A DNA stretch of 64,000 nt from Gemmatimonadota bacterium (GTDB lineage Bacteria; Gemmatimonadota; Gemmatimonadetes; Gemmatimonadales; GWC2-71-9): positions 6,753 through 70,752 of the forward strand of contig JANMXA010000046.1 of the NCBI GenBank assembly GCA_031394255.1. Reading direction: 5' to 3'. The notes under the pieces are model-generated. The model was not told the DNA's origin. It searched no databases and saw only the letters and a list, made by a program, of their open reading frames with translations. Shown here piece by piece: positions 10,626 through 27,209 of this stretch; positions within the stretch are counted from its first letter, which is position 1, and each line of letters opens with the position of its first letter. The position numbers and the translations under genes were made by a program.

Positions 10626-10654
10626 TTGCTAACCCGCCGAGGTCGCCCTACGTT
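10626..10654 (+). promoter_or_regulatory. Candidate sigma70 promoter of the FHA-PP2C operon
   Basis: TTGCTA-N17-TACGTT. Confidence 0.5.
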
Positions 10655-10779
10655 TGTGGCCCACGCTGCAGGGTCGAGAACCACTCGAACGGCGGACGGG
10701 CGTCAGGGTGGCGGCAAGGGGCGGGCAAAGGTCCGCCCTTTGGGCCGCCCATTGGGGGAATCGCGATCGATCGCATGAA

Positions 10780-11703
10780 ATGCTCGTGAACGACCAAGCC
10801 AAAATCCAGCCTGCCACCGCGCAGCGAACTTCCCTCGTTCCGGCCGACCCGATCGAGGGCGCCGGTCGTCTGGTCAGTTTGGCCGACGGACGGGAGCACC
10901 GGATCGTGGTGGTGCCGTTCGTGCTGGGACGGGACGTCAGCGCCCAGGTGGTGCTTGGTTCGCCCGACGCGTCGCGGAGGCATGCCGAGGTCGTCACGCG
11001 GCCGGACGGCGATGTGCTGATCGACTGGTCCGCCAACGGGACCTTCGTCAACGGGGTCCGGATCGAAGGCCGTCAGCCCCTCAAGCCCCTGGATGTCATC
11101 CGGATCGGGTCGGAAGAGTTCCGGTATTACCCCGGGACCGACCTGGCGCCCAGTCCCGCCCACCGACTCAACAACACCCTCGCGGGCTTCCCGTCACTCG
11201 GCCTGGCGGTGTCGCCGATCCCCGTGGTCCGGTCGCTGGCAACCATCCGGGTGAAACGGGGACCGGCGAAGGGCGCTCGGTTCGCCATTCGTGCGCCGAT
11301 TGCCACGTTCGGGAGGGCCGAGGCGAACGACGTTCGGATCGACGACCCGAGCATCAGCGCGTCTCACGCCCGGCTGATGTTGATGGAGGGCGTCTGGACG
11401 CTGCAGGATCTCGGGTCCACCAACGGCACGGTGGTCGATGGCATCCGCATGACCGAGGACGTCGCCCTCTCGCCCGGCGCCACCATCGAACTCGGCGTCG
11501 TGGCTCTGTCGTTCGAACCGCATGACGAACCGACACCCGCAGCCAGCCGGCCGCTACGGATGCCGGCCGAATCGCCGCGGGCCCCCTCGGCACCGATCAT
11601 TCTCGAAACGGGGCGGGAAACCGCGCCCCGGTTCCGCCTCCTCCTACCGCTGGCGATTCTGGTTCTGCTTGCAGGCCTCGCCGCCCTGATCTTCCTGGTG
11701 TAG
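10780..11703 (+). CDS. Double-FHA domain protein with C-terminal TM anchor
   Basis: FHA1 LGR...SRRH...SANGTFVNG; FHA2 FGR...SASH...STNGTVVDG; hydrophobic C-terminus; start (ATG 10780) uncertain. Confidence 0.85.
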   Translation: MLVNDQAKIQPATAQRTSLVPADPIEGAGRLVSLADGREHRIVVVPFVLGRDVSAQVVLGSPDASRRHAEVVTRPDGDVLIDWSANGTFVNGVRIEGRQPLKPLDVIRIGSEEFRYYPGTDLAPSPAHRLNNTLAGFPSLGLAVSPIPVVRSLATIRVKRGPAKGARFAIRAPIATFGRAEANDVRIDDPSISASHARLMLMEGVWTLQDLGSTNGTVVDGIRMTEDVALSPGATIELGVVALSFEPHDEPTPAASRPLRMPAESPRAPSAPIILETGRETAPRFRLLLPLAILVLLAGLAALIFLV

Positions 11704-11706
11704 CCG

Positions 11707-12447
11707 ATGCTGATTTCGTGTGCCGGAGACACCCACGTCGGGGTCGTGCGCAGTGGCAACGAGGATAGCTTCCTCCTCGATTTCCGCCGCGGTGTCTTCA
11801 TCGTCGCCGACGGGATGGGGGGCCATGCGGCCGGTGAGGTCGCGAGCGAGATGGCGGTCGAGATCATTGCGCGGGAGGTCGGAACCCTGAAGGGCCTGAC
11901 CGACGCCGAGACCTTCGACCGGCTCCGGGCATCGATCCGCACGGCCAATCAGGCGATCTACGAGCGGACGCTGGCCGAAGTCGACAAGCGCGGCATGGGC
12001 ACCACCACGACCGTGCTGGCCCTGACTTCCAATCGGTACCTGATCGGCCAGGTGGGCGACAGCCGGGCCTATCTGCTTCGGGGCGGGACCCTGGTCCAGG
12101 TGACCAAGGACCACAGTTACGTGCAGGAGCAGGTGGATGCCGGATTGCTGACCCAGGAACAGGCCAGAACCCATCCCTACAGCAACGTGATTACCCGTTG
12201 CGTCGGCGCCAACGAGGACGTCGTGCCGGACGTCTACTTCGGCAATCTCGAACGAGGCGATGTCCTGTTGATCGCTTCGGACGGGCTGACCGGGATGCTC
12301 GAAGACGATCAACTCGGGCGGATCCTGACGGCCGACGGGACACCCGAGGTTTCGATCAGCCGGATGATCGCCGAGGCCAATCGGCGGGGCGGGCTCGACA
12401 ACATCACGGCCATCATCGTCCGGGTGGACGAGATCGACCCGGCCTGA
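11707..12447 (+). CDS. PP2C/PPM Ser/Thr phosphatase (Stp1/PrpC family)
   Basis: RSGNED, VADGMGGHAAGEVAS, MGTT, VGDSRAY, SDGL, GGLDNIT. Confidence 0.95.
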   Translation: MLISCAGDTHVGVVRSGNEDSFLLDFRRGVFIVADGMGGHAAGEVASEMAVEIIAREVGTLKGLTDAETFDRLRASIRTANQAIYERTLAEVDKRGMGTTTTVLALTSNRYLIGQVGDSRAYLLRGGTLVQVTKDHSYVQEQVDAGLLTQEQARTHPYSNVITRCVGANEDVVPDVYFGNLERGDVLLIASDGLTGMLEDDQLGRILTADGTPEVSISRMIAEANRRGGLDNITAIIVRVDEIDPA

Positions 12448-17075: not shown

Positions 17076-18278
17076 CTAGTTCCGCCGGCGGAGCCAGTCG
17101 GTCGGATCCAGGGCGATCTGGTTGTCCCCCCGAATTTCGAAGTACAGGTGAGATCCGTCGGGCGTGTTCTCGCCTCCGACGGCTCCGATCGCCTGCCCCT
17201 TGGCGATCTCGTCACCGACTTTCACGGCGGCGGCGGAGAGCTGCATGTACAGCGAGAAGTAGCCGCTGGCATGCTCGAGGATGATCGAGAGCCCGTAGGT
17301 TCCCAGCCGCTGAACCAGCACCACCTTGCCGGCCGAGACGGCGGTGACGGTCGTTCCCGCCTGCGCGGCGATCGAGATGCCGTGCCGGCTGATTCTGGCG
17401 CCGCTGGCGAGGGTGTCCGGGCCGAAGACATGGATGATGCGGCCCTGGACGGGCCAGTCGAGTTTGCCGAGCTCGGCGGTTGAAGCACCTCTCGAGCGGC
17501 CGCCGGAACCGCCGCCGGCATTGGGGGCGGCGGCCCGCGGCGCCGTCCGTCGGTTTCGCTCGATGGTGGCGAGTACGTCGATCAGGTTTTCTTCGTCCTT
17601 GGCGAGGACCGACAGTCGCTTGGCGGTCGTCTGGGTGTTGAGGCGAAGTCGGCGGAGCTGGGCCTGTCGGTCTTCGGCCAGCGTCCGGTAGCTGCTCAAC
17701 TCGGCCTCGCGGTCGGCTCGGCGGCGGTCGAGCTGTTCCTGCACAAGGACGAGTTCGCCCCGCTGCGCCTTGATCCGGTTCGCCAGTCTCTCGACGTCAG
17801 TGACCAACGCGCGGTCCTGCCGGCTCGTCAGGAAGAGATACTTGTAACGGGATAGCAGGTCGGCGAACGAGTCCGCCGCCAGCAGGACCTGGAACGTATA
17901 GAGCGACCCCCGTTTGTAGATGTCGACCAGCCGCCGCTCGAGCACGGCCCGGCGATCGGCCAGGTTGTCCTCGGCGAGGGCCAATTGCACGGAGCTGTTG
18001 TCGACCTGGCTGCCAAGGCCGCCGATCTGGCGCTCGAGTTCGTTGACGATCCGGTTCGTCGCGTCGCGCTGACGCTCGAGGTTGTCGAGTTCACGACCGG
18101 CGTCCCGCACCTGACCCTGGATCTTTTCCTGCTCGCCGCGCAGCCGTTCCCGTTCGGCCCGGATCTGTTCGAGCCGCTGGCGGCTCTTTTCCAGGTCGTT
18201 CGGCTGCTGGGCCACGAGGTTGGTGGCGACCAGGCCGAGCGCCGCGGCGAGGCACAGAACGGTCCGGCGGATCGACAT
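17076..18278 (-). CDS. envC: Murein hydrolase activator EnvC-like (coiled coil + degenerate M23 domain)
   Basis: Signal peptide, long coiled coil, WPVQG, YG..IILEH; Zn ligands degenerate (HGISI, HLYFEIR); follows ftsEX. Confidence 0.82.
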   Translation of the reverse strand: MSIRRTVLCLAAALGLVATNLVAQQPNDLEKSRQRLEQIRAERERLRGEQEKIQGQVRDAGRELDNLERQRDATNRIVNELERQIGGLGSQVDNSSVQLALAEDNLADRRAVLERRLVDIYKRGSLYTFQVLLAADSFADLLSRYKYLFLTSRQDRALVTDVERLANRIKAQRGELVLVQEQLDRRRADREAELSSYRTLAEDRQAQLRRLRLNTQTTAKRLSVLAKDEENLIDVLATIERNRRTAPRAAAPNAGGGSGGRSRGASTAELGKLDWPVQGRIIHVFGPDTLASGARISRHGISIAAQAGTTVTAVSAGKVVLVQRLGTYGLSIILEHASGYFSLYMQLSAAAVKVGDEIAKGQAIGAVGGENTPDGSHLYFEIRGDNQIALDPTDWLRRRN

Positions 18279-18282
18279 CCGG

Positions 18283-19158
18283 CTAGACGCTCCGCAACTG
18301 GCGATCGACCGAAACCAGACTGCCACCGAGACCGATGCCGATGGCGAACAGCATCATCACGGTCATCTGCAGCGTGCCGAAGAAGACCAGGGTGGCTCCG
18401 GTGTCGCCGGTGGTCTGCCGGAAGACGTAAAAGGTGACCCAGCACATCACGATCGCCAGGACCCCGCCCAGAATCCCCTTGATGGCCCCTTCGATCAGGA
18501 ACGGACCGCGAATGTAGTTGTTGGTGGCCCCCACCAGGCGCATGATCGAGATTTCCTTGGCCCGTTGGAGCACCGTGATCCGGATGGTGACGCCGATGAT
18601 GACGATGGCCACCGCCGCGAAAGCCAGGCCGATCACCAGACCCACGACCGCCGCCATGGTGCGGAGCTTGTCGAGCCGCTCGACCCAATCCCGGCCGTAC
18701 CGGACGTCCTCGATGAACGGGAACCCGCGCAGCCGTTCCGCGACCGCCTGGGCCTGCTTCGCGTTGCGGAACTGCGGCTTGAGGCGAATCTCGAACGAGG
18801 CGGGGAGCGGATTGACCTCGAGGTCGCGATAGGCCTCGCGAAACTCGACCAGCTCGCGGCGGGCCCGGGCCAGGGCCTGTTCCTCGGTCACGAACCGGAG
18901 TTCCAGGACTTCGGGGAAGGCGGTGATGTCCTGGGTGGCCTGGCTGATCGCTTCGGTCGGTGTCCCCCGAAGGACAAAAGCCACGACCTCGACCCGTTCG
19001 GCCAGGACGTCGAGGGCTCGCCGGAAGTTGAGCGCCACCAGGAAGAACAGGCCGATGGTGAAGAGCGAGAATCCGATCGATGCAATCGACAGGCTCGACA
19101 GCAGGGGCGTCCGTTGAAAGACAAGGAGGGCCTCCCGCAACGGTGTCCGGTGTCTCAT
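18283..19158 (-). CDS. ftsX: Cell division permease FtsX
   Basis: NPLPASFEI, EISIMRLVGATNNYIRGPFLIEG, 4 TM segments. Confidence 0.93.
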   Translation of the reverse strand: MRHRTPLREALLVFQRTPLLSSLSIASIGFSLFTIGLFFLVALNFRRALDVLAERVEVVAFVLRGTPTEAISQATQDITAFPEVLELRFVTEEQALARARRELVEFREAYRDLEVNPLPASFEIRLKPQFRNAKQAQAVAERLRGFPFIEDVRYGRDWVERLDKLRTMAAVVGLVIGLAFAAVAIVIIGVTIRITVLQRAKEISIMRLVGATNNYIRGPFLIEGAIKGILGGVLAIVMCWVTFYVFRQTTGDTGATLVFFGTLQMTVMMLFAIGIGLGGSLVSVDRQLRSV

Positions 19159-19841
19159 GGGGCCGCCTCGGCGTCATCGACGCCACTGTCATAGACGATC
19201 CGTCCGCCCTTGAGTTCGATCGTCCGGTAGCCGGTGTCGCGGACCAGTTCCATGTTGTGGGTCGCCATGACCACTACGGTTCCCCCCGCGTTGATCTCGC
19301 GTAGCAACTGGAAGATGCCCCGGGTGGCCCGCTCGTCGAGGTTGCCCGTCGGTTCGTCGGCAATCAGGATGTGGGGGTCGTTGACCAGCGCCCGGGCGAT
19401 GGCGACGCGCTGCTGTTCTCCGCCCGACAGTTCCTTGGGGTAGCCGCGGGCCTTCGACGCCAGCCCTACCTGGGTGAGCGCCCGCATGACCCGGTTGGGA
19501 ATCGATTCGTGGCGTGCGCCGGTCACCTCCAGCGCAAAGGCGACGTTTTCCTCGACCGTCCGGTATTCCAGCAGCCGAAAATCCTGGAACACGACTCCGA
19601 GACGGCGCCGGAGCCGGGGGATCTCTCGCGCGGTGAGCTTGCTGATCTGGTAGCCGGAGACCTTCACTTCGCCCTCGGTGGGCTTCTGGTCGGCGATGAT
19701 CATCGACAGAATCGATGATTTGCCCGCTCCGGAATGGCCCGTCAGGAAGACGAACTGGCCGCGGGGAATGTGAAACGACGCGTCCTTGAGGCCAGAGACG
19801 CCGTTTCCGTACGTGAGGCTGACGTGGTTGAATCGGATCAT
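19155..19841 (-). CDS. ftsE: Cell division ATP-binding protein FtsE
   Basis: GHSGAGKS, RRRLGVVFQDFRLL, LSGGEQQR, ADEPTGNLD; start set at ATG 19841. Confidence 0.95.
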   Translation of the reverse strand: MIRFNHVSLTYGNGVSGLKDASFHIPRGQFVFLTGHSGAGKSSILSMIIADQKPTEGEVKVSGYQISKLTAREIPRLRRRLGVVFQDFRLLEYRTVEENVAFALEVTGARHESIPNRVMRALTQVGLASKARGYPKELSGGEQQRVAIARALVNDPHILIADEPTGNLDERATRGIFQLLREINAGGTVVVMATHNMELVRDTGYRTIELKGGRIVYDSGVDDAEAAP

Positions 19842-20995
19842 AGGCCGTCGAGGGCGTGGCGGAGATCGTCGATCAGGTCGTCGATGTCCTCGATGCCGCA
19901 CGAGAGCCGGACCAGGCCATCGGCGATGCCGATGGCCTTCCGCTGCTCGGGTGTGAGCGACGCGTGGGACGTGAGGCGGGGTTCCGAAATCAGACTCTCG
20001 ACGCCGGCGAGACTCGGGGCGTGCGTCACGATCCGCAACCGTCGGAGGAATCGCTCCGCTCCTTCGGACCCACCTTGGATCTCGAGGCCCACCATGCCCC
20101 CGAATCCGCTGAGGATGCGCGCCGCGATGGCGTGATCCGGATGAGCGGTGAGCCCGGGATAGTGGACCGCGACGACCTTGGGGTGATTCGCGGCAAATTG
20201 AGCCACCGCCAAGCCGGTCGCGTTCTGACGGTCGACCCGGAGCGCCAGCGTCTTCATGCCGCGATCCAGGAGCCAGGCCGAGTGAGAATCGAGTGCCGGC
20301 CCCCACACGCGGGACAACCGGATCACCTCATCGACCAGCGACTGGGTCCCCGCCACGGCTCCGCCGGTCACGTCCGAATGGCCATTCAGGTACTTGGTGG
20401 CGCTGGTGATCACCACGTCCGCACCGGTTTCGATCGGCCGGTAGTTGATCGGGCTGGCGAATGTGCTGTCCACCAGCAGGGCCAATCCGAATTCCTTGGT
20501 GATGGCGGTGACCGGGTTCGGGTCGACCACCCGCATCAACGGGTTCGTGGGCGACTCGAAGAACACCGCCCGCGTGTTCTTCTTCACGGCTCGTCGCCAG
20601 GCCCGGGGCTGGACCGGGTTCACATAGGTGATCGCGATGCCGAAGCGGTCGAATTCTTCGTCGAAGAGGCGCCGGGTGCCCCCGTAGATCCACTCGCTCG
20701 CGATCAGGTGATCGCCGGGACGGAGCACGGCCAGGTGTGCCATGGCCGTCGCGGCCATGCCGCTCGAGAGGAAAATGGCGGCTTCCGCGCCCTCGAGCAG
20801 GGCGTATTTTCTTGCCAGCGCCACCTGGTTCGGCGTGTTGCCGTACCGCTCGTACATCACTTCACGATCCGATCCGATCGCATTCACGTAGGTCGTGCTC
20901 TGATAGATCGGCTGCACCACCGGTTGATCCGGGTGCCGGCGGGCCGGCGGCCCGTGAACGGCGGTGGTCGAACGTCCGTGGCTGGGCTTGGTCAT
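19838..20995 (-). CDS. PLP-dependent trans-sulfuration enzyme (cystathionine gamma-synthase/lyase or methionine gamma-lyase family)
   Basis: YERYGN, SSGMAA, ESPTNP, DSTFASP, SATKYLNGHSD, RLSCGIED; start set at ATG 20995. Confidence 0.9.
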   Translation of the reverse strand: MTKPSHGRSTTAVHGPPARRHPDQPVVQPIYQSTTYVNAIGSDREVMYERYGNTPNQVALARKYALLEGAEAAIFLSSGMAATAMAHLAVLRPGDHLIASEWIYGGTRRLFDEEFDRFGIAITYVNPVQPRAWRRAVKKNTRAVFFESPTNPLMRVVDPNPVTAITKEFGLALLVDSTFASPINYRPIETGADVVITSATKYLNGHSDVTGGAVAGTQSLVDEVIRLSRVWGPALDSHSAWLLDRGMKTLALRVDRQNATGLAVAQFAANHPKVVAVHYPGLTAHPDHAIAARILSGFGGMVGLEIQGGSEGAERFLRRLRIVTHAPSLAGVESLISEPRLTSHASLTPEQRKAIGIADGLVRLSCGIEDIDDLIDDLRHALDGL

Positions 20996-21534
20996 AGGAT
21001 GGGCAGGGGGCAGTAGGTGCCGGATGCGGCCTGCACCAATCGGCGCAGGGCCAGGGATTGGAGGGCGTCGGCGGCCCGTTCGATCGTCCATCCGAGGGCG
21101 TCAGCCAGCCGGCCCGAGTCGCCGGCTCCGAGGCGCTGGACGGCATCGAACGCGGCCAGCAGGTCCGGGGTTCGCCAGCCGAGGATGCCAGGGGGGGCGC
21201 CGTCGTCAGGCACCGCGATCACCGTGAGGCGGTGGGTTTCGAGGACGTGATCGATCGCTTCCCGATGGGTGTCGGAGACGTTCACGAGCACGACATATCT
21301 GGGGCGGTCGTCGGCGGCGTTGAGCAGCAGTTTGGCCACGATCTCATCGGCACAGCTGTAATCCAGCAGGCCGATCGAGCCGAAATCCAGCTGAGTGGTC
21401 GGATGCGGGTTGGTGCCGATCCTGGCTTCGATCAGCTGCCGGAGGGAAATGCCGGTGGGCCTGGTGACCAGGTGGTTGTACCCCGAAGTGACCGTTTCCC
21501 GGAGCAGCGGGCGGAGATCGATCCGTTCTCTCAT
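20992..21534 (-). CDS. STAS-like (DUF4325-type) domain + probable C-terminal winged HTH
   Basis: TRPTG..LR, LDFGSIGLLDYSCADEIV (STAS-like phospho-Ser context); C-terminal LADALGWTIERAADALQSL..RRLV HTH-like. Confidence 0.65.
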   Translation of the reverse strand: MRERIDLRPLLRETVTSGYNHLVTRPTGISLRQLIEARIGTNPHPTTQLDFGSIGLLDYSCADEIVAKLLLNAADDRPRYVVLVNVSDTHREAIDHVLETHRLTVIAVPDDGAPPGILGWRTPDLLAAFDAVQRLGAGDSGRLADALGWTIERAADALQSLALRRLVQAASGTYCPLPIL

Positions 21535-22433
21535 CGCGCGGGAGCCTCCTGCGCCGGAATGGTGATCTGCACCTGGGAACCCGGGAAGAACGGCAGGTGC
21601 TCGGCCAGCGGAACGTCATCATCCCATTCGGGCAGGACGGACAGTCTGGCCGTACCGCTCCGGATCGCGATCTTGCCCTGCCACCGCAGCAGGTACCGTT
21701 TGATCCCGGCCAGTCCCTGCCCGCGGCCCGGGTCGCGGAACCGGCTGACCCCGTGCAACAGCGCCGACTCCAGGGCCGCGCCGTCGCCCCAGCGCTCGCC
21801 GACCTTCTTTGCTTCCGAGGCTTCGAGCGAACGGCGAAAGCCGACCCCCGCGTCGCTCACGGCGATGACCGCCACCTTCCGGCCCAGTCTCCGCTGCCAC
21901 ATGTAGGTCTGCACCGCCACCCAGCCGCCGGTACCGGCATGCTCGACGATATTCTGGCAGGCTTCCGAGAGCGCCATGGCGAATCCCATGACGGCCTTGG
22001 CCTCGAGCTTGAGCTCCGAGGTCAGGATCCTGGTGGCGCCTTCCTGGACCCGACCCACCACTTCGTGCACATCCTCTGCCGCCCGCACCGCCGTCACCGG
22101 TACCAGCGTGCTGCCGGGCGCGTCGCCGCTCCGCTTGGGAATCTTGCCCGCGAGCTCGAAATAGTCGACGGCGTGGTGAAAGAAGCCCGTTCGGGCCCAG
22201 TAACTCCTGGTGTCGTCGCTGTCCGGTACCGCGAGGCGCGGCTTGGGCAGCTTGAGTTCGGCGATCGCCTGTCCGAGCGTCAGCATCGCCGCGAGGCCGT
22301 AGGGCGATGCCCAGGTCGTGCCCCGGGCGTCGATCAACAGCCGTTCCGCCGGGGGCCAGGGCCCGAGGGCAAGGGCGAACTGATCGAGAGTTCGATCGTC
22401 GAAGTGGGCCGGAACGGGTGCGACGTGAATCAT
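21531..22433 (-). CDS. STAS-like + GHKL (HATPase_c) Ser-kinase/anti-sigma-like ATP-binding protein
   Basis: N box EACQNIVEHA, G1 SDAGVGF, G2 GRGQGL, G3 PGSQV; no H-box; N-terminal IDARGTTWASPYGL STAS-like; start set at ATG 22433. Confidence 0.75.
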   Translation of the reverse strand: MIHVAPVPAHFDDRTLDQFALALGPWPPAERLLIDARGTTWASPYGLAAMLTLGQAIAELKLPKPRLAVPDSDDTRSYWARTGFFHHAVDYFELAGKIPKRSGDAPGSTLVPVTAVRAAEDVHEVVGRVQEGATRILTSELKLEAKAVMGFAMALSEACQNIVEHAGTGGWVAVQTYMWQRRLGRKVAVIAVSDAGVGFRRSLEASEAKKVGERWGDGAALESALLHGVSRFRDPGRGQGLAGIKRYLLRWQGKIAIRSGTARLSVLPEWDDDVPLAEHLPFFPGSQVQITIPAQEAPAR

Positions 22434-23347
22434 GGTGTGACCAGAGTGCCCTTCAGATGTTGGGCCAGGCCTCCGGCACCCCGGAACCGGGCATTGCGAC
22501 TCGCCATTCGGTTGCCGAAGCGGGCGGCCGTATCGATCGCGTCGCCCCGGAGGATGGCCGAAAAGGTCGCCGCCCCGAACACATCGCCGCAACCGGTCGG
22601 GTCAGGATCGTCGACCGGCTCGGTCGCAATCAGCTCCGTCCGGGTCATCGCGCCGTCCCCGGCAACATAGACGACGCCGCGAGGGCCGAGGGTGACCAGG
22701 ACGCCCTTCGCCCCCTGGCCCAGGATCGCGGTCGCGAGGCTCAACGGATCGGTCGACAGCTCGGCCATCTCGTCCTCGTTGACCTGGATGTAGTCGAAAC
22801 ACCGGTACCAGTTCGGGGCGTCGACCAGCGGCGCCAGGGTCCGGATCCCGTCCCGGCCCATGCCGAGGAGCAGGCTGTGCAGGTCGGCGTAGATCGGCCC
22901 CCGGAATCCGTCGCGGAGCGCCGATGCGGTGCCGAGGCACATCTCGAAGCCCGAGATGAAATTGACGTACAGGGCGTCGAGGTCGCGCACCAGGGGCCCA
23001 AGTTCGGCCCAGTTCCAGCCCGGGACGCCGCCCGCCATCCGCTCGCAGCGGCGTTGCTGGGACTGATAGCGGAGGACAACCCGGTTGTTCGGCGTGGGCA
23101 CCTCGATGAAACGGGCCGCCGGATGGCGGTGGCTCAGCGTGGCGAGAAACCGGTCGGCCTCGCGAATCAGGTCGCTGCCCACCTTGATCAGGGGCACGAT
23201 TTCCCAGTCGTCGCCTAACGATGCCTCGAAGCCCGAGAGAGCGTACGCGATCCCGCCCCATTCCTCGACCGGCCCGCGCGCCGGATCGCGGCCGTGGATC
23301 TGGTCCCAGACCAGCGACCCGACGACGCCGATCCTACGCGTGGGCAT
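22430..23347 (-). CDS. PfkB/ribokinase family carbohydrate kinase
   Basis: WGGIAY, QVNEDE, VTLGPRG, DPTGCGDVFG; start set at ATG 23347. Confidence 0.85.
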   Translation of the reverse strand: MPTRRIGVVGSLVWDQIHGRDPARGPVEEWGGIAYALSGFEASLGDDWEIVPLIKVGSDLIREADRFLATLSHRHPAARFIEVPTPNNRVVLRYQSQQRRCERMAGGVPGWNWAELGPLVRDLDALYVNFISGFEMCLGTASALRDGFRGPIYADLHSLLLGMGRDGIRTLAPLVDAPNWYRCFDYIQVNEDEMAELSTDPLSLATAILGQGAKGVLVTLGPRGVVYVAGDGAMTRTELIATEPVDDPDPTGCGDVFGAATFSAILRGDAIDTAARFGNRMASRNARFRGAGGLAQHLKGTLVTP

Positions 23348-24302
23348 CCAGGAATACCTTGGCCGCCCCAACCACCCCCGCGGTGCCGGGGAGGGCACCC
23401 GGCACGATCCGGCACGCCTGAACCGCCGGGCGGAAGGCCCGCCGGTTCACCTCGCGACGGAGCGGTGTGAACAGCCGGTCCCCGGCCTGAGTGACGCCGC
23501 CGCAGATAACCACGACCTCAGGGTTCAGGATGTTGATCAGGTTGGCCACCCCGACGCCGAGGTACTTGGCGGTGTCCTGAACCACTTCGAGCGCCAGTGG
23601 GTCGCCCGCCGCCGCGGCCTCATAGACGGTCTGGGCGGTGATGGCCGCCAGGTCGCCGCGCACGGCCTGCTGGATTGACGAATCCGCCCCGGCTTCGAGC
23701 GCTTCGATGGTTCGCCGGGCGATCGCGGGTCCCGAGGCATACGCCTCGAGGCATCCGTCGTTGCCGCAGCCGCAGCGGCGCCCGTTGGTTTCGATGGTGA
23801 TGTGGCCGATTTCCGCCGCGACGTCGGACGCTCCGTGCAGGAGTTTGCCGTCCACTACGATCCCCCCGCCGATGCCCGTGCCAAGGGTGAAGGTCACGGC
23901 ATGACGGGCGCCCTGGGCCGCCCCGACCCACCACTCGCCGGCCATGGCGCAATTGGCGTCGTTGTCGAGGGAGGCCGGCAAGGCCAGGCGCTCGCCGATG
24001 CGGTCGCGGACCGGCATGTTGACCCAGCCGAGGTTCGGCGTCAGGAGGACGATCCCGGCGGTTCGGTCGAGCGGTCCAGGCGATCCGATGCCAACACCAG
24101 TGATGTCGGCCTCGGCGTCCCCCTTCCGCGTCTCCGCCATGGTGGCCTCGGCCATCGTGATGATCCGGTCGATGACATGGTCGGCGCCGTGGACCGCGCC
24201 GGTCGGTTCGCTCCGGAGCCCGAGCACCCGCGTGCCATCCTCGGTGACCGCTCCGACGACCAGATTGGTACCGCCGATGTCTACTCCCAGTACGTATCGC
24301 AT
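23334..24302 (-). CDS. ROK family sugar kinase (glucokinase-like)
   Basis: GVDIGGT, DNDANC, TLGTGIGGG, EIGH, CGCGNDGCLEAY. Confidence 0.93.
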   Translation of the reverse strand: MRYVLGVDIGGTNLVVGAVTEDGTRVLGLRSEPTGAVHGADHVIDRIITMAEATMAETRKGDAEADITGVGIGSPGPLDRTAGIVLLTPNLGWVNMPVRDRIGERLALPASLDNDANCAMAGEWWVGAAQGARHAVTFTLGTGIGGGIVVDGKLLHGASDVAAEIGHITIETNGRRCGCGNDGCLEAYASGPAIARRTIEALEAGADSSIQQAVRGDLAAITAQTVYEAAAAGDPLALEVVQDTAKYLGVGVANLINILNPEVVVICGGVTQAGDRLFTPLRREVNRRAFRPAVQACRIVPGALPGTAGVVGAAKVFLDAHA

Positions 24303-24306
24303 CGTG

Positions 24307-25317
24307 TCATCCGATCAGTGCCTGGATCGTGTCCCGGACGGTCGTCGCTGGAATCTCGCGCATGCACCGGTGATGACCAAGCGGACACCGGGCCGGCCCG
24401 TGCGGCGAGCAGGGCCGGCATTTGAGGTCGGTTCGCTCGACGATGGCCGCCCGGCTCGCTCTCGGGCCGAAACCGAAGCGGGGTACGGTCGGCCCGAACA
24501 GGGCAACCGTCGGCGTATTCGTGGCGCTCGCCAGATGGAGCGGCGCCGAATCGTTGGTCACGAGCACGCGGGCTCGTTCGAGCAGGGCCGCGGAAACCCT
24601 GATCGGGATCGTCCCGGATGCATCGAACACCCGTTCCGGCGCGGCGTCCACCAGGGCTGCGGTGGCGGCCCGGTCGTCCGGTCCCCCGACGACGACCACG
24701 TGCCCGGGGACGAGCCGGACCAACTCGGCGAAGCCGCCCCACCGTTTGGTTCCCCAGATCGAGCCAGGGGCCATGGCCACGAATCCGTCACCGATCCCCC
24801 GGCTGGCGAGCCAGGCGTAGGCCTGGGCCCGGTCGTCTTCGGTGATCGCGAGGTGAATTCGGGCCCGCCCGCCCAGGTCAGCCAGGGCGAGCAGGCGGTC
24901 GGCCTCGTGAAGATCTTCCCGTCGTTCGACGCGGCGGGTGTAAAGCCACCGGCCCTCGGCCCCGGCAAAACCAATCCGTTCAGGAATGTGGGCGGCCCAG
25001 ACAATTGCGGCAGACCGCAGGGACCGGTGAGCAAGGTACGCCCGGGCATACCCCCGGGCGGCGAGGTGCTGAGCCAGTCGCCATGCGGGGCCGAGACCCC
25101 GGTCGCGGCGGTGTTTGTCGTAGCTCAAGACGCTCCGAACCGACGGCAGGGAGTCGACCAGCGGAATGGCTGCCGGCGTGACGACGACATCCACCGGCCC
25201 AAATCGCTCCGCCAGGACGTCGAGCAGCCCGGTCGTCAGCACGACGTCGCCGAGGAACGCGGTCTGGACAACCAGCGTGCCGCCTGCTGCGACTCCCTCG
25301 CCCGGGTTCCCCGTCAC
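24307..25317 (-). CDS. GT9 glycosyltransferase (LPS heptosyltransferase WaaF-like)
   Basis: QTAFLGDVVL, APGS.WGTKRW, VTNDSAPLHLA, LFGPT, C-terminal CRPC...C...C. Confidence 0.9.
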   Translation of the reverse strand: MTGNPGEGVAAGGTLVVQTAFLGDVVLTTGLLDVLAERFGPVDVVVTPAAIPLVDSLPSVRSVLSYDKHRRDRGLGPAWRLAQHLAARGYARAYLAHRSLRSAAIVWAAHIPERIGFAGAEGRWLYTRRVERREDLHEADRLLALADLGGRARIHLAITEDDRAQAYAWLASRGIGDGFVAMAPGSIWGTKRWGGFAELVRLVPGHVVVVGGPDDRAATAALVDAAPERVFDASGTIPIRVSAALLERARVLVTNDSAPLHLASATNTPTVALFGPTVPRFGFGPRASRAAIVERTDLKCRPCSPHGPARCPLGHHRCMREIPATTVRDTIQALIG

Positions 25318-25332
25318 GGTGCTGGCCGTCCG

Positions 25333-27138
25333 CTAGTCGCTGTCGACCTGAAGCACCGCAAGGAAGGCTTCCTGCGGGATTTCGACCTGCCCGATCTGCT
25401 TCATCCGCTTCTTGCCCTCCTTCTGCTTCTCGAGGAGCTTGCGTTTCCGGGTGATGTCGCCGCCGTAGCATTTGGCGAGGACGTCTTTCCGCATCGCCGA
25501 AATGGTTTCGCGCGCGATGATCTTCTGTCCGATGGCGGCCTGCAACGCGACCTGGAACAACTGGCGGGGGATCAGCTCCTTGAGCTTCTCCGCCACCTTG
25601 CGGCCCCAATCGTAGGCCTTGGCCTCGTGGATGATGACGCTGAAGGCGTCGATCTGTTCGCCGTTGATGAGCAGGTCGAGCTTCACCAGGTCGCTCTCCC
25701 GGTAGTCCGACATCTCGTAGTCGAGGGAGGCGTACCCCCGCGACAGCGACTTGAGGCGGTCGTAGAAGTCGAGGACAATCTCGCCGAGCGGGAATTCAAA
25801 ACTGAATTCCACCCGCGTCGGGTCGATGAAGTGCATGCCGTGATAGATGCCGCGACGGTCGGTCCCGAGTTTCATGATCGGGCCGATGTAGTCCGTGGGC
25901 GAGACAATCCGGGCCTTGACGTAAGGCTCTTCGATCCGGGCCCGAAGTCCGTCCTCGGGCAGGGTCGAGGGGTTTGCCACCACAACCATCTCGCCGCTGG
26001 TGAGATAGACGTGGTATTCGACCGTGGGAACCGTGGTGATCAGATCGAGATTGAATTCGCGCTCGAGCCGCTCCTGCACGATCTCCATGTGCAGGAGGCC
26101 GAGGAATCCGCACCGAAAACCGAATCCGAGCGCCAGCGACGACTCGGGCTCGTAGCGAAGACTCGCGTCGTTGACCTGCAGGCGTTCGAGCGCGTCCCGC
26201 AGGTCCTCGTACTGATCCGTGCTGGTTGGGTAGACGCCGGCGAACACCATCGATTTGACGTCGCGATACCCCGCCAGCAGGTCGGTCGCCGGGTTGCCGG
26301 AGTCCAGGATGGTGTCGCCGACCCGGGCGTCCCGGACCCCGCGCACGCTGGCGACCACGTATCCTACTTCGCCGGCCTCGAGCTGGTCGGCGCGGTGCTG
26401 CCCCATGGCGGGAAAGCCAACCTCGACGACTTCGTACTTGTCCGCCGGGTGGGAACCGAAGTGCACCATCATGCCCTTGCGGATCGTCCCGTCCACCACC
26501 CGGACCGTCGGGACGGCCCCGCGGTACCGGTCGTAGTACGAATCGAATACCAGCGCCCGAAACGGTCCATCCGGGTTGCCCCTGGGCACGGGGAGGCGAG
26601 CGATGATGGCCTCAAGCAGCTCGGGGACGCCGGTCCCTTCCTTGGCAGAAACGGCGAGGATCTGGTCCCGGGTCACGCCGAGAAGCTCCATCAGTTCGGC
26701 GGCCCGTTTCTCGGGCTCGGCCCCGGGAAGGTCGATCTTGTTGAGCACCGGGATGACTTCGAGGCCCGCCTCGAGTGCGAGAAACAGGTTCGACAGGGTC
26801 TGGGCCTGCACGCCCTGCGAGGCGTCGACCACGAGGATCGCGCCCTCGCACGCCGCCAGTGACCGCGACACCTCATAGGTGAAGTCGACGTGGCCCGGCG
26901 TGTCGATCAGGTTGAGTTCATAGTCCTGGCCGTCCCGTGCCCGATAGGACATCCGGCAGGCGTTGAGCTTGATCGTGATGCCTCGTTCCCGCTCGAGGTC
27001 CATGTTGTCGAGGACTTGCTCCTTCATCTGCCGCTTGGCCAGCGTCCCGGTGGCCTCGATCAGCCGATCGGCCAGAGTCGATTTGCCGTGGTCGATGTGG
27101 GCCACGATGCAGAAATTGCGGATGCGAGACTGCTTCAT
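25333..27138 (-). CDS. lepA: Elongation factor 4
   Basis: [60 protein letters not shown]. Confidence 0.98.
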
Positions 27139-27209
27139 GGCGACGAATATAGTCGAGTCACCCGGTATTCCTTCCTCGCCGCTACGGGGGACTCGATTAG
27201 CTTTGCGCG

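What the first reader, a model, noticed from the sequence alone, without database searches (positions are those of the whole stretch)
20992..22433. STAS-GHKL kinase + STAS-wHTH pair wired into the lepA-ftsEX-envC housekeeping operon
Seen: 22433-21531 has an N-terminal STAS-like segment and full GHKL boxes (EACQNIVEH, DAGVG, GRGQGL, PGS) with no His phosphoacceptor box. The ATGA-coupled 21534-20992 has a STAS-like LDF..IGLLDYSCADE segment and an HTH-like C-terminus. Established: SpoIIAB/RsbW kinases phosphorylate a STAS serine. From memory, the same two-gene architecture was reported for the CapK/CapS regulators next to anti-phage operons. Inference: this is a sigma-independent partner switch acting on a DNA-binding protein. 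Here it sits in a chain of 4-nt overlaps (PfkB kinase, this pair, PLP lyase, ftsE, ftsX) with no defence genes, so it may be a housekeeping version linking stress or sugar/sulfur status to division and envelope genes.
Basis: partly seen in the sequence, partly recalled or inferred. Interest (0 to 1): 0.7.

Follow-up and report, generated by a model that had tools for sequence, protein, structure and literature searches.

The report
Domesticated CapK/CapS-like kinase switch
Two overlapping genes encode a predicted serine kinase and its likely substrate, relatives of a DNA-damage switch found beside phage-defence genes; here the pair was likely captured once into a housekeeping operon and is kept across nearly a whole bacterial class, where it likely signals through protein contacts rather than by repressing its neighbours.

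Summary
Observation confirmed. 22433-21531 (K, 300 aa) is a STAS domain plus a SpoIIAB-type GHKL domain; 21534-20992 (S, 180 aa) is STAS plus winged helix. Both are homologous to CapK/CapS (HHalign 99.7%/97.9%), S Ser60 aligns with the phosphorylated CapS Ser54, and a predicted complex puts Ser60 at K's active site (0.83 vs best control 0.00). The pair is in 180 of 201 Gemmatimonadota genomes sampled (all of 8 families), mostly single copy, with no defence genes. The sister family shows the empty site (pfkB next to metC), so the pair was likely inserted once and fixed. The link to ftsEX-envC is limited to one order and pfkB can be lost, so the neighbours are probably hosts, not targets. CapS's DNA-reading residues, operators and ssDNA-stacking Trp are absent, and the winged helix was lost at least three times, though it is under purifying selection in this genus. 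K keeps a basic/aromatic hairpin where CapK contacts ssDNA. It works like CapK/CapS but is not a member; input and output are inferred. The scan noted this family on at least 10 other genomes; I found no paper on it. New variant of a known kind.

The parts
21531..22433 (-). K: CapK-like kinase, 300 aa, STAS domain + SpoIIAB-type GHKL domain, no N-terminal HTH
22143..22433 (-). K N-terminal STAS domain (aa 1-97); Pro44 is invariant where STAS antagonists carry a serine, so likely not a phospho-acceptor; CapK's ssDNA-stacking Trp68 aligns to variable His10
21939..21965 (-). N-box E157-ACQ-N161-IVE-H165; E157, N161 and H165 in 90 of 90 homologues; N161 aligns with CapK N218
21876..21905 (-). Aromatic/basic hairpin Y177-x-W179-x-RRLGRK186 at the position of CapK Y236-K237-G-K239; outside the predicted S interface; candidate ligand site
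20992..21534 (-). S: CapS-like STAS (DUF4325-type) + winged-helix protein, 180 aa
21355..21357 (-). Ser60 codon: invariant, aligns with CapS Ser54, predicted to touch K S156/E157/G240
21004..21174 (-). Winged helix of S (aa 121-177): fold intact here, CapS DNA contacts absent, deleted in several lineages
22430..23347 (-). PfkB-family kinase, upstream flank of the insertion site, ATGA overlap with K
19838..20995 (-). Cys/Met PLP lyase (metC-like), downstream flank of the insertion site, ATGA overlap with S
23334..27138 (-). Host operon upstream: lepA, GT9 heptosyltransferase, ROK kinase
17076..19841 (-). ftsE-ftsX-envC(M23), attached only in families f1-f3 (Gemmatimonadales-level)

Best explanation
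K and S are a CapK/CapS-related pair, likely inserted once between pfkB and metC and since kept as core genes, in which K likely phosphorylates Ser60 of S and the signal likely passes through protein contacts on S's STAS face rather than through repression of the host operon. Step by step. (1) Shown: homology, tight coupling, class-wide retention, empty site in the sister family. (2) Predicted: K docks S as SpoIIAB docks SpoIIAA, with Ser60 at the catalytic Glu157. (3) Inferred from CapK: K is switched on by a ligand in the groove between its STAS and GHKL domains; the conserved aromatic/basic hairpin points to a single-stranded nucleic acid, but CapK's Trp68 is missing, so the ligand may differ from CapK's ssDNA. 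(4) Inferred from CapS and VapS: unphosphorylated S holds a partner through its Ser60 face (another S, K itself, or an unidentified third protein encoded elsewhere) and phosphorylation releases it. The winged helix is an accessory part, kept in some lineages (this one included) and dropped in others.
For: Homology over both domains of both proteins to the paper's own E. roggenkampii CapK/CapS (WP_001567865.1 locus): HHalign 99.7%, E 5.9e-26 and 97.9%, E 3.7e-13. Complex score 0.83 against best control 0.00; this mark was reached by 116 of 157 solved complexes and 2 of 215 mismatched pairs; runs agree in at least 90% of contacts, partner pLDDT at least 87. Catalytic residues invariant in 90 of 90; Ser60 invariant in 145 of 145. 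K in 180 of 201 genomes, all 179 of families f1-f8 plus the own genome, one match in 171; S in the same 180; both genes in 90 of 90 loci, within 45 nt in 88. Empty site in 2 of 2 f9 genomes; pair-bearing genomes form one LepA clade (100/98) with f9 as sister. S's conserved face is largely the K-docking face (mean top-residue frequency 0.70 vs 0.51 for other STAS positions and 0.42 for the winged helix). Winged helix less conserved than STAS (0.30 vs 0.47 identity; higher in only 73 of 2628 pairs), the reverse of CapS (0.43 vs 0.40; 7 of 10 pairs). At least three separate losses of the winged helix with K intact. No intergenic space for an operator.
Against: Within this genus the winged helix is under purifying selection (pN 0.13, pS 0.57) and is more conserved than the STAS region (pN 0.19); it is similarly constrained in g16 and g65. 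74 of 90 loci examined do not show a loss, and 79 of the 80 best GTDB hits are full length. The complex resembles solved SpoIIAB-SpoIIAA and RsbW-RsbV pairs, so the pass may reflect that likeness. No third partner was identified. No phosphatase is linked to the locus across relatives. Trp68, essential for CapK's ssDNA response (PMC13373217), is absent. The root of the LepA tree has modest support (90/82) and only two f9 genomes were seen, so loss in f9 and the other classes is not excluded.
Confidence: 0.5

Rival explanations
1. S is still a CapS-type repressor in the lineages that keep the winged helix: a dimer that binds lineage-specific operators elsewhere in the genome (or at the lepA promoter) and falls off on phosphorylation; lineages without it have a different output.
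For: Intact winged-helix fold; purifying selection in this genus; CapS D52, S54 and E58 have invariant counterparts D58, S60, E64; R164/R165 moderately conserved (0.66/0.84); nearest outside cluster is a DUF4325+HTH family in Nitrospirota (TM 0.87).
Against: CapS N145 and K151 align to variable positions (R153 0.45; Q159 top residue D 0.29), the GG wing is not conserved, recognition helix mean net charge -0.8; no spaced palindrome in more than 7 of 54 lepA upstream regions; K-S and S-metC overlap; repeated loss.
Confidence: 0.28
2. One reading: the pair senses sugar-phosphate or sulfur status from the ROK/PfkB/PLP-lyase neighbours and controls ftsEX-envC and envelope genes in the same operon.
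For: pfkB directly upstream of K in 53 of 58 loci; metC directly after S in 33 of 58; five ATGA overlaps; the basic hairpin could bind a phosphorylated metabolite (inference).
Against: The host string exists without the pair; pfkB not found in 8 of 11 selected pair-bearing genomes and present in 7 of 21 genomes without the pair; ftsEX-envC absent from 27 of 27 loci of f4-f8; in G106 the pair left the lepA operon and pfkB.
Confidence: 0.12
3. The pair is a passenger: an inserted cassette kept because deleting it disturbs coupled translation, or because K is harmful without S.
For: It sits inside a translationally coupled chain; parts of S decay repeatedly.
Against: K is at least 39% identical across the class with invariant catalytic and surface residues; pN far below pS in all four domains in 5 of 5 groups; kept in genomes of about 2 Mb and after relocation; neither gene was lost in 180 genomes.
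Confidence: 0.07

Closest known systems
CapK + CapS (Chambers et al., EMBO J 2026, PMC13373217; PDB 9z71, 9z72 matched)
   Same: STAS-GHKL kinase immediately followed by STAS-wHTH; homologous over both domains; same phospho-serine (S60/S54) and N-box Asn (N161/N218); basic hairpin at the ssDNA-groove position.
   Different: No N-terminal HTH; no Trp68; no N145/K151/GG DNA contacts; genes overlap, so no operator-bearing spacers; no immune operon; single-copy, vertical, class-wide instead of sporadic; winged helix dispensable.
VapK-VapS-VapC (same paper)
   Same: Kinase without HTH; STAS serine predicted to gate a protein contact; STAS-only S occurs in genus g47.
   Different: No PIN/VapC gene in any locus examined; S here has a winged helix; not in defence islands.
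SpoIIAB/SpoIIAA, RsbW/RsbV partner switches
   Same: Best structural matches of the kinase domain (Z 14.5, 11.6); predicted docking of the STAS serine at the catalytic Glu.
   Different: K has its own STAS domain; no sigma factor or conserved phosphatase in the locus; the genome has a separate canonical STAS/RsbW/SpoIIE cluster on contig C294.
DUF4325 (PF14213) STAS-like proteins with their ATP-binding partners
   Same: T-R-x-x-G and D-x-S motifs; DUF4325 hits in 2 of 30 homologues and in nearest Atlas clusters.
   Different: Those seen here are sporadic, lower-GC3 insertions; the Gemmatimonadota family has Cys instead of Phe after the serine.

Membership tests
CapK/CapS | Kinase with STAS + GHKL domains homologous to CapK | tested here: met
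   HHalign 99.7%, K 11-292 vs CapK 69-363; fold
CapK/CapS | N-terminal HTH on the kinase | tested here: not met
   K starts at the STAS domain. Weak criterion: deletion had no effect in PMC13373217, and the Sphingobium capKS-like kinase also lacks it
CapK/CapS | STAS-wHTH protein directly downstream with the conserved serine | tested here: met
CapK/CapS | Located beside an immune or stress operon | tested here: not met
   Housekeeping neighbours in the window and in 60 relatives' loci
CapK/CapS | ssDNA-stacking aromatic residue (CapK W68) | tested here: not met
   Aligns to position 10: S 0.43, H 0.15, Q 0.10, T 0.09; mapping is by sequence alignment at the edge of the aligned region, not by superposition
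CapK/CapS | Basic residues of the ssDNA groove (CapK K237, K239) | tested here: met
   Y177 100%, R/K at 181 0.90, 182 0.95, 185 1.00
CapK/CapS | Conserved DNA-contact residues of the wHTH (N145, K151, G169-G170) | tested here: not met
CapK/CapS | Palindromic operators between K and S and after S | tested here: not met
   4-nt overlaps on both sides; no conserved palindrome near the other junctions
CapK/CapS | S homodimer broken by phosphorylation | not tested
CapK/CapS | ssDNA-activated phosphorylation and repression | not testable with these tools
   Needs a kinase assay and reporter
VapKSC | Third gene encoding a VapC/PIN nuclease | tested here: not met
   S is followed by metC or other enzymes
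SpoIIAB/RsbW anti-sigma kinases | HATPase_c_2-type serine kinase fold without His-acceptor domain | tested here: met
SpoIIAB/RsbW anti-sigma kinases | Cognate sigma factor in the same locus | tested here: not met
   None adjacent in the window or conserved beside the pair
SpoIIAB/RsbW anti-sigma kinases | Binds and inhibits a sigma factor | not testable with these tools
   A sigma factor encoded elsewhere is not excluded; 5 Sigma70_r3 matches in the genome

The most novel reading that the evidence does not exclude
A phage-defence regulator was domesticated into a class-wide core signalling pathway: a second, RecA/LexA-independent sensor of single-stranded nucleic acid that all main Gemmatimonadetes lineages keep beside LexA, and whose phospho-STAS output gates an unknown core protein (for example a sigma factor, or a translation or division factor) instead of a promoter or a toxin.
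Probability: 0.25. Interest if true: 0.8.

Novelty: new variant of a known kind. Interest (0 to 1): 0.5.

Why it matters
CapK/CapS was described only as a mobile regulator beside immune operons. Here the same module has a dated-looking single insertion (with an empty site in the sister family) and no loss in 180 genomes of a very abundant, barely studied soil and marine class. That is a clean case of an immune-associated module becoming core machinery, and natural deletions of the winged helix give ready-made variants for asking what the kinase-STAS unit does without DNA binding. It also offers one of few lineage-specific signalling systems for Gemmatimonadota.

Tried and rejected
LexA replacement: rejected, lexA is in 197 of 201 genomes, all 179 f1-f8 relatives included. 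SOS control of the operon: a candidate TTCG-N7-TTCG repeat seen before lexA was found before none of the eight operon genes in 25-59 loci each; the motif itself is unverified. Obligate PfkB-K-S module: rejected. Conserved operator: none found by spaced-palindrome counts or promoter scan (0 sites; weak test in a 67% GC genome). Phage origin: no relative in IMG/VR with three family-specific patterns, which cannot see distant forms. Single-sequence PDB searches found nothing; Foldseek gave only weak, single-domain matches and did not list CapS, nor did the wide VIA search, possibly because those entries are not in the libraries. PADLOC DrmA hit on K (E 3.5e-9, 145 of 1750 profile positions): not a DISARM locus. 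Expression: no RNA holder listed. Low-scoring S in five f7 genomes are full length, not further losses. L074 ends at a contig edge and was not counted as a loss. The K tree is the quick tree with 20 near-duplicate rows left out, and its outgroup branches are too long to name a donor. Literature: searches listed no paper on this pair in Gemmatimonadota; 13 of 14 supplementary files of PMC13373217 hold no Gemmatimon*, Longimicrob* or Gemmatirosa (file 11 not searched; figures not seen).

Full report
Observation. The minus strand carries K (22433-21531, 300 aa) and S (21534-20992, 180 aa) as described. They lie in the string lepA, GT9, ROK, pfkB, K, S, metC-like PLP lyase, ftsE, ftsX, envC, with five consecutive ATGA overlaps from pfkB to ftsX and host-like codon composition. 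Source names of close homologues and GTDB titles place the host in the Gemmatimonadales (79 of 80 loci are Gemmatimonadota, one is a 3.5-kb contig labelled Myxococcales).

Folds. K models well (pLDDT 92). Residues 106-297 match SpoIIAB best (Z 14.5, rmsd 2.6, 135 aligned), then UsfX and RsbW, above the histidine kinases; residues 1-97 are a STAS domain (Z 9.0). There is no His-acceptor domain. S models well (pLDDT 93) as STAS plus a winged helix at 121-177.

Relation to CapK/CapS. I read PMC13373217: abstract, introduction, all results (parts 1-5 of 12), discussion and the bioinformatics methods, part 1 of 4 of Dataset EV2; figures were not visible. Through a Sphingobium plasmid hit I reached a plasmid carrying the paper's CapS accession WP_001567865.1 and its kinase. 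Profile comparisons give 99.7% (E 5.9e-26) for K and 97.9% (E 3.7e-13) for S. Ser60 aligns with CapS Ser54 and N161 with CapK N218. A K-S-ATP-Mg model scored 0.83 against a best control of 0.00 (mark reached by 116 of 157 solved complexes and 2 of 215 mismatched pairs; contacts agree at least 90%, partner pLDDT at least 87), with Ser60 touching K S156, E157 and G240 and the winged helix outside the interface. Similar complexes are solved (SpoIIAB-SpoIIAA), so this shows likeness, not binding.

Distribution. K was found in 180 of 201 phylum genomes: the own genome and 179 of 179 in families f1-f8, 0 of 2 in f9 (same class), 0 of 19 in other classes; 171 of 180 have one match. The S profile finds the same 180 plus two weak hits. 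A K profile over the 21 negative genomes found one distant, unrelated-context copy. These tallies include G157, which is unpublished (one row). Both genes are present in 90 of 90 loci examined, within 45 nt in 88, and K lies just upstream in 77 of 80 GTDB loci, the other three being at contig edges. The K tree groups f2, f4, f6, f7 and f8 each together, as vertical descent predicts (quick tree).

Origin. In both f9 genomes the order is lepA, GT9, rok, pfkB, metC with nothing K- or S-like between; f11 and f12 also have rok-pfkB without the pair. On a LepA tree the pair-bearing genomes are one clade (100/98) and f9 is its sister (root 90/82). The simplest reading is one insertion between pfkB and metC, then fixation. 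Sporadic K plus STAS-only cassettes of lower GC3 still occur in these genomes, which shows the kind of source, not the donor.

Are the neighbours the targets? Probably not. ftsEX-envC follows only in f1-f3 and in 0 of 27 f4-f8 loci. pfkB is directly upstream in 53 of 58 loci but was not found in 8 of 11 pair-bearing genomes chosen for likely loss, and is present in 7 of 21 genomes without the pair. In G106 the pair moved away with metC. No defence genes flank it. LexA is present in 197 of 201 genomes, so the pair does not replace it.

Input. CapK needs Trp68 and has K237/K239 on the ssDNA groove (PMC13373217). Trp68 aligns to a variable small residue in K, while the K237/K239 hairpin is kept and extended (Y177 100%; aromatic at 179 0.96; R/K at 181, 182, 185 0.90-1.00) and is not in the S interface. 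I infer a polyanionic ligand, most likely a single-stranded nucleic acid; this is untested.

Output. CapS represses through N145, K151 and a GG wing at palindromes flanking its gene. In S these positions are variable, the recognition helix averages -0.8 charge, and only 2 of 60 winged-helix positions reach 0.9 conservation against 19 of 110 in STAS (73 full-length rows; 17 short rows set aside). Pairwise identity is 0.47 for STAS and 0.30 for the winged helix, whereas five CapS give 0.40 and 0.43. The domain was cut down in a 10-genome clade of f1 (141-148 aa), removed in genus g47 of f2 (120-127 aa, 4 genomes) and damaged in two more f1 genomes, with K intact: 16 of 90 loci, at least three events; those loci were picked for low scores, so this is not a frequency. 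The genes overlap on both sides, leaving no operator space, and no palindrome recurs before lepA in more than 7 of 54 loci. Against this, the winged helix is under purifying selection in the window's own genus (pN 0.13, pS 0.57; STAS pN 0.19) and in g16 and g65, so it is not vestigial here, and repression at distant sites remains a real rival (0.28).

Verdict. It works like CapK/CapS at the kinase-substrate step (likely, about 0.85) but fails several defining features, so it is not filed as a member. Best mechanism (0.5): a ligand-gated kinase phosphorylates Ser60 and releases a protein partner from S's STAS face. My six literature searches (listings only, plus passages of PMC7159879 that did not bear on it) and a search of 13 of 14 supplements of the CapK paper showed no description of this family. 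Earlier notes of this scan report the same family on at least 10 other genomes with similar readings; they are not independent support. The empty-site and LepA-tree result, the pfkB test and the selection test were done here. New variant of a known kind; interest 0.5.

Noticed in passing
upstream of lexA in L052-L054, L056-L060 and G000:C85:55656-55740: Direct repeats TTCG-N7-TTCG, often two sets, sit just before lexA in about 9 of 11 regions by eye: a candidate Gemmatimonadota LexA box. Not enriched genome-wide as a bare pattern (243 vs 230-257 for neighbouring non-periodic spacings); no paper on it.
   Followed up: partly
window 27139-27155 and many f1 loci: A TATATT box lies about 9-10 nt before the lepA start codon with no Shine-Dalgarno-like run, suggesting a leaderless transcript for the whole string.
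   Followed up: no
L118 (G187), L122 (G039), L121 (G164), L123 (G182): Sporadic distant STAS-GHKL kinases of lower GC3: two with a 107-113 aa STAS-only partner, one with a fused C-terminal STAS, one beside an integrase-like gene.
   Followed up: partly
L120 (G106:C35:15449-18841): A second K-family paralogue with a decayed N-terminal STAS and no S partner seen, next to a ROK-family repressor.
   Followed up: no
L045 and L090 (family f8): A cyclophilin gene is inserted between K and S; in G106 the pair plus metC moved next to an RsbR-S-T stressosome cluster.
   Followed up: partly
L031-L035, L037, L070, L071, L079, L080 (family f2): A 100-aa stand-alone molybdopterin-dinucleotide-binding-like (double-psi barrel) gene is coupled directly after S.
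   Followed up: no
L102 (Nostoc plasmid AP018224.1): An HTH-less K and STAS-wHTH pair without Trp68 precedes a metallo-beta-lactamase-like gene and an E2/E1/JAB-like fusion; it is the best plasmid match to K (E 8e-13).
   Followed up: partly
window 21531-22433: K residues 109-265 match the N-terminal part of PADLOC's DrmA profile (E 3.5e-9), hinting at CapK-type kinases fused to some DISARM helicases.
   Followed up: no
window 22430-23347: The PfkB kinase is a distinct conserved subfamily (DPTGCGD anion hole, WGGIxY) of unknown substrate, present in most of the phylum.
   Followed up: partly
G078:C4 and G078:C50: One genome has two full K-S copies, the lepA-linked one on a long branch.
   Followed up: no
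window 10654-12447: An FHA-domain gene and a PP2C phosphatase lie about 8.5 kb from S on the other strand; not seen beside the pair in relatives, so not assigned as the resetting phosphatase.
   Followed up: partly
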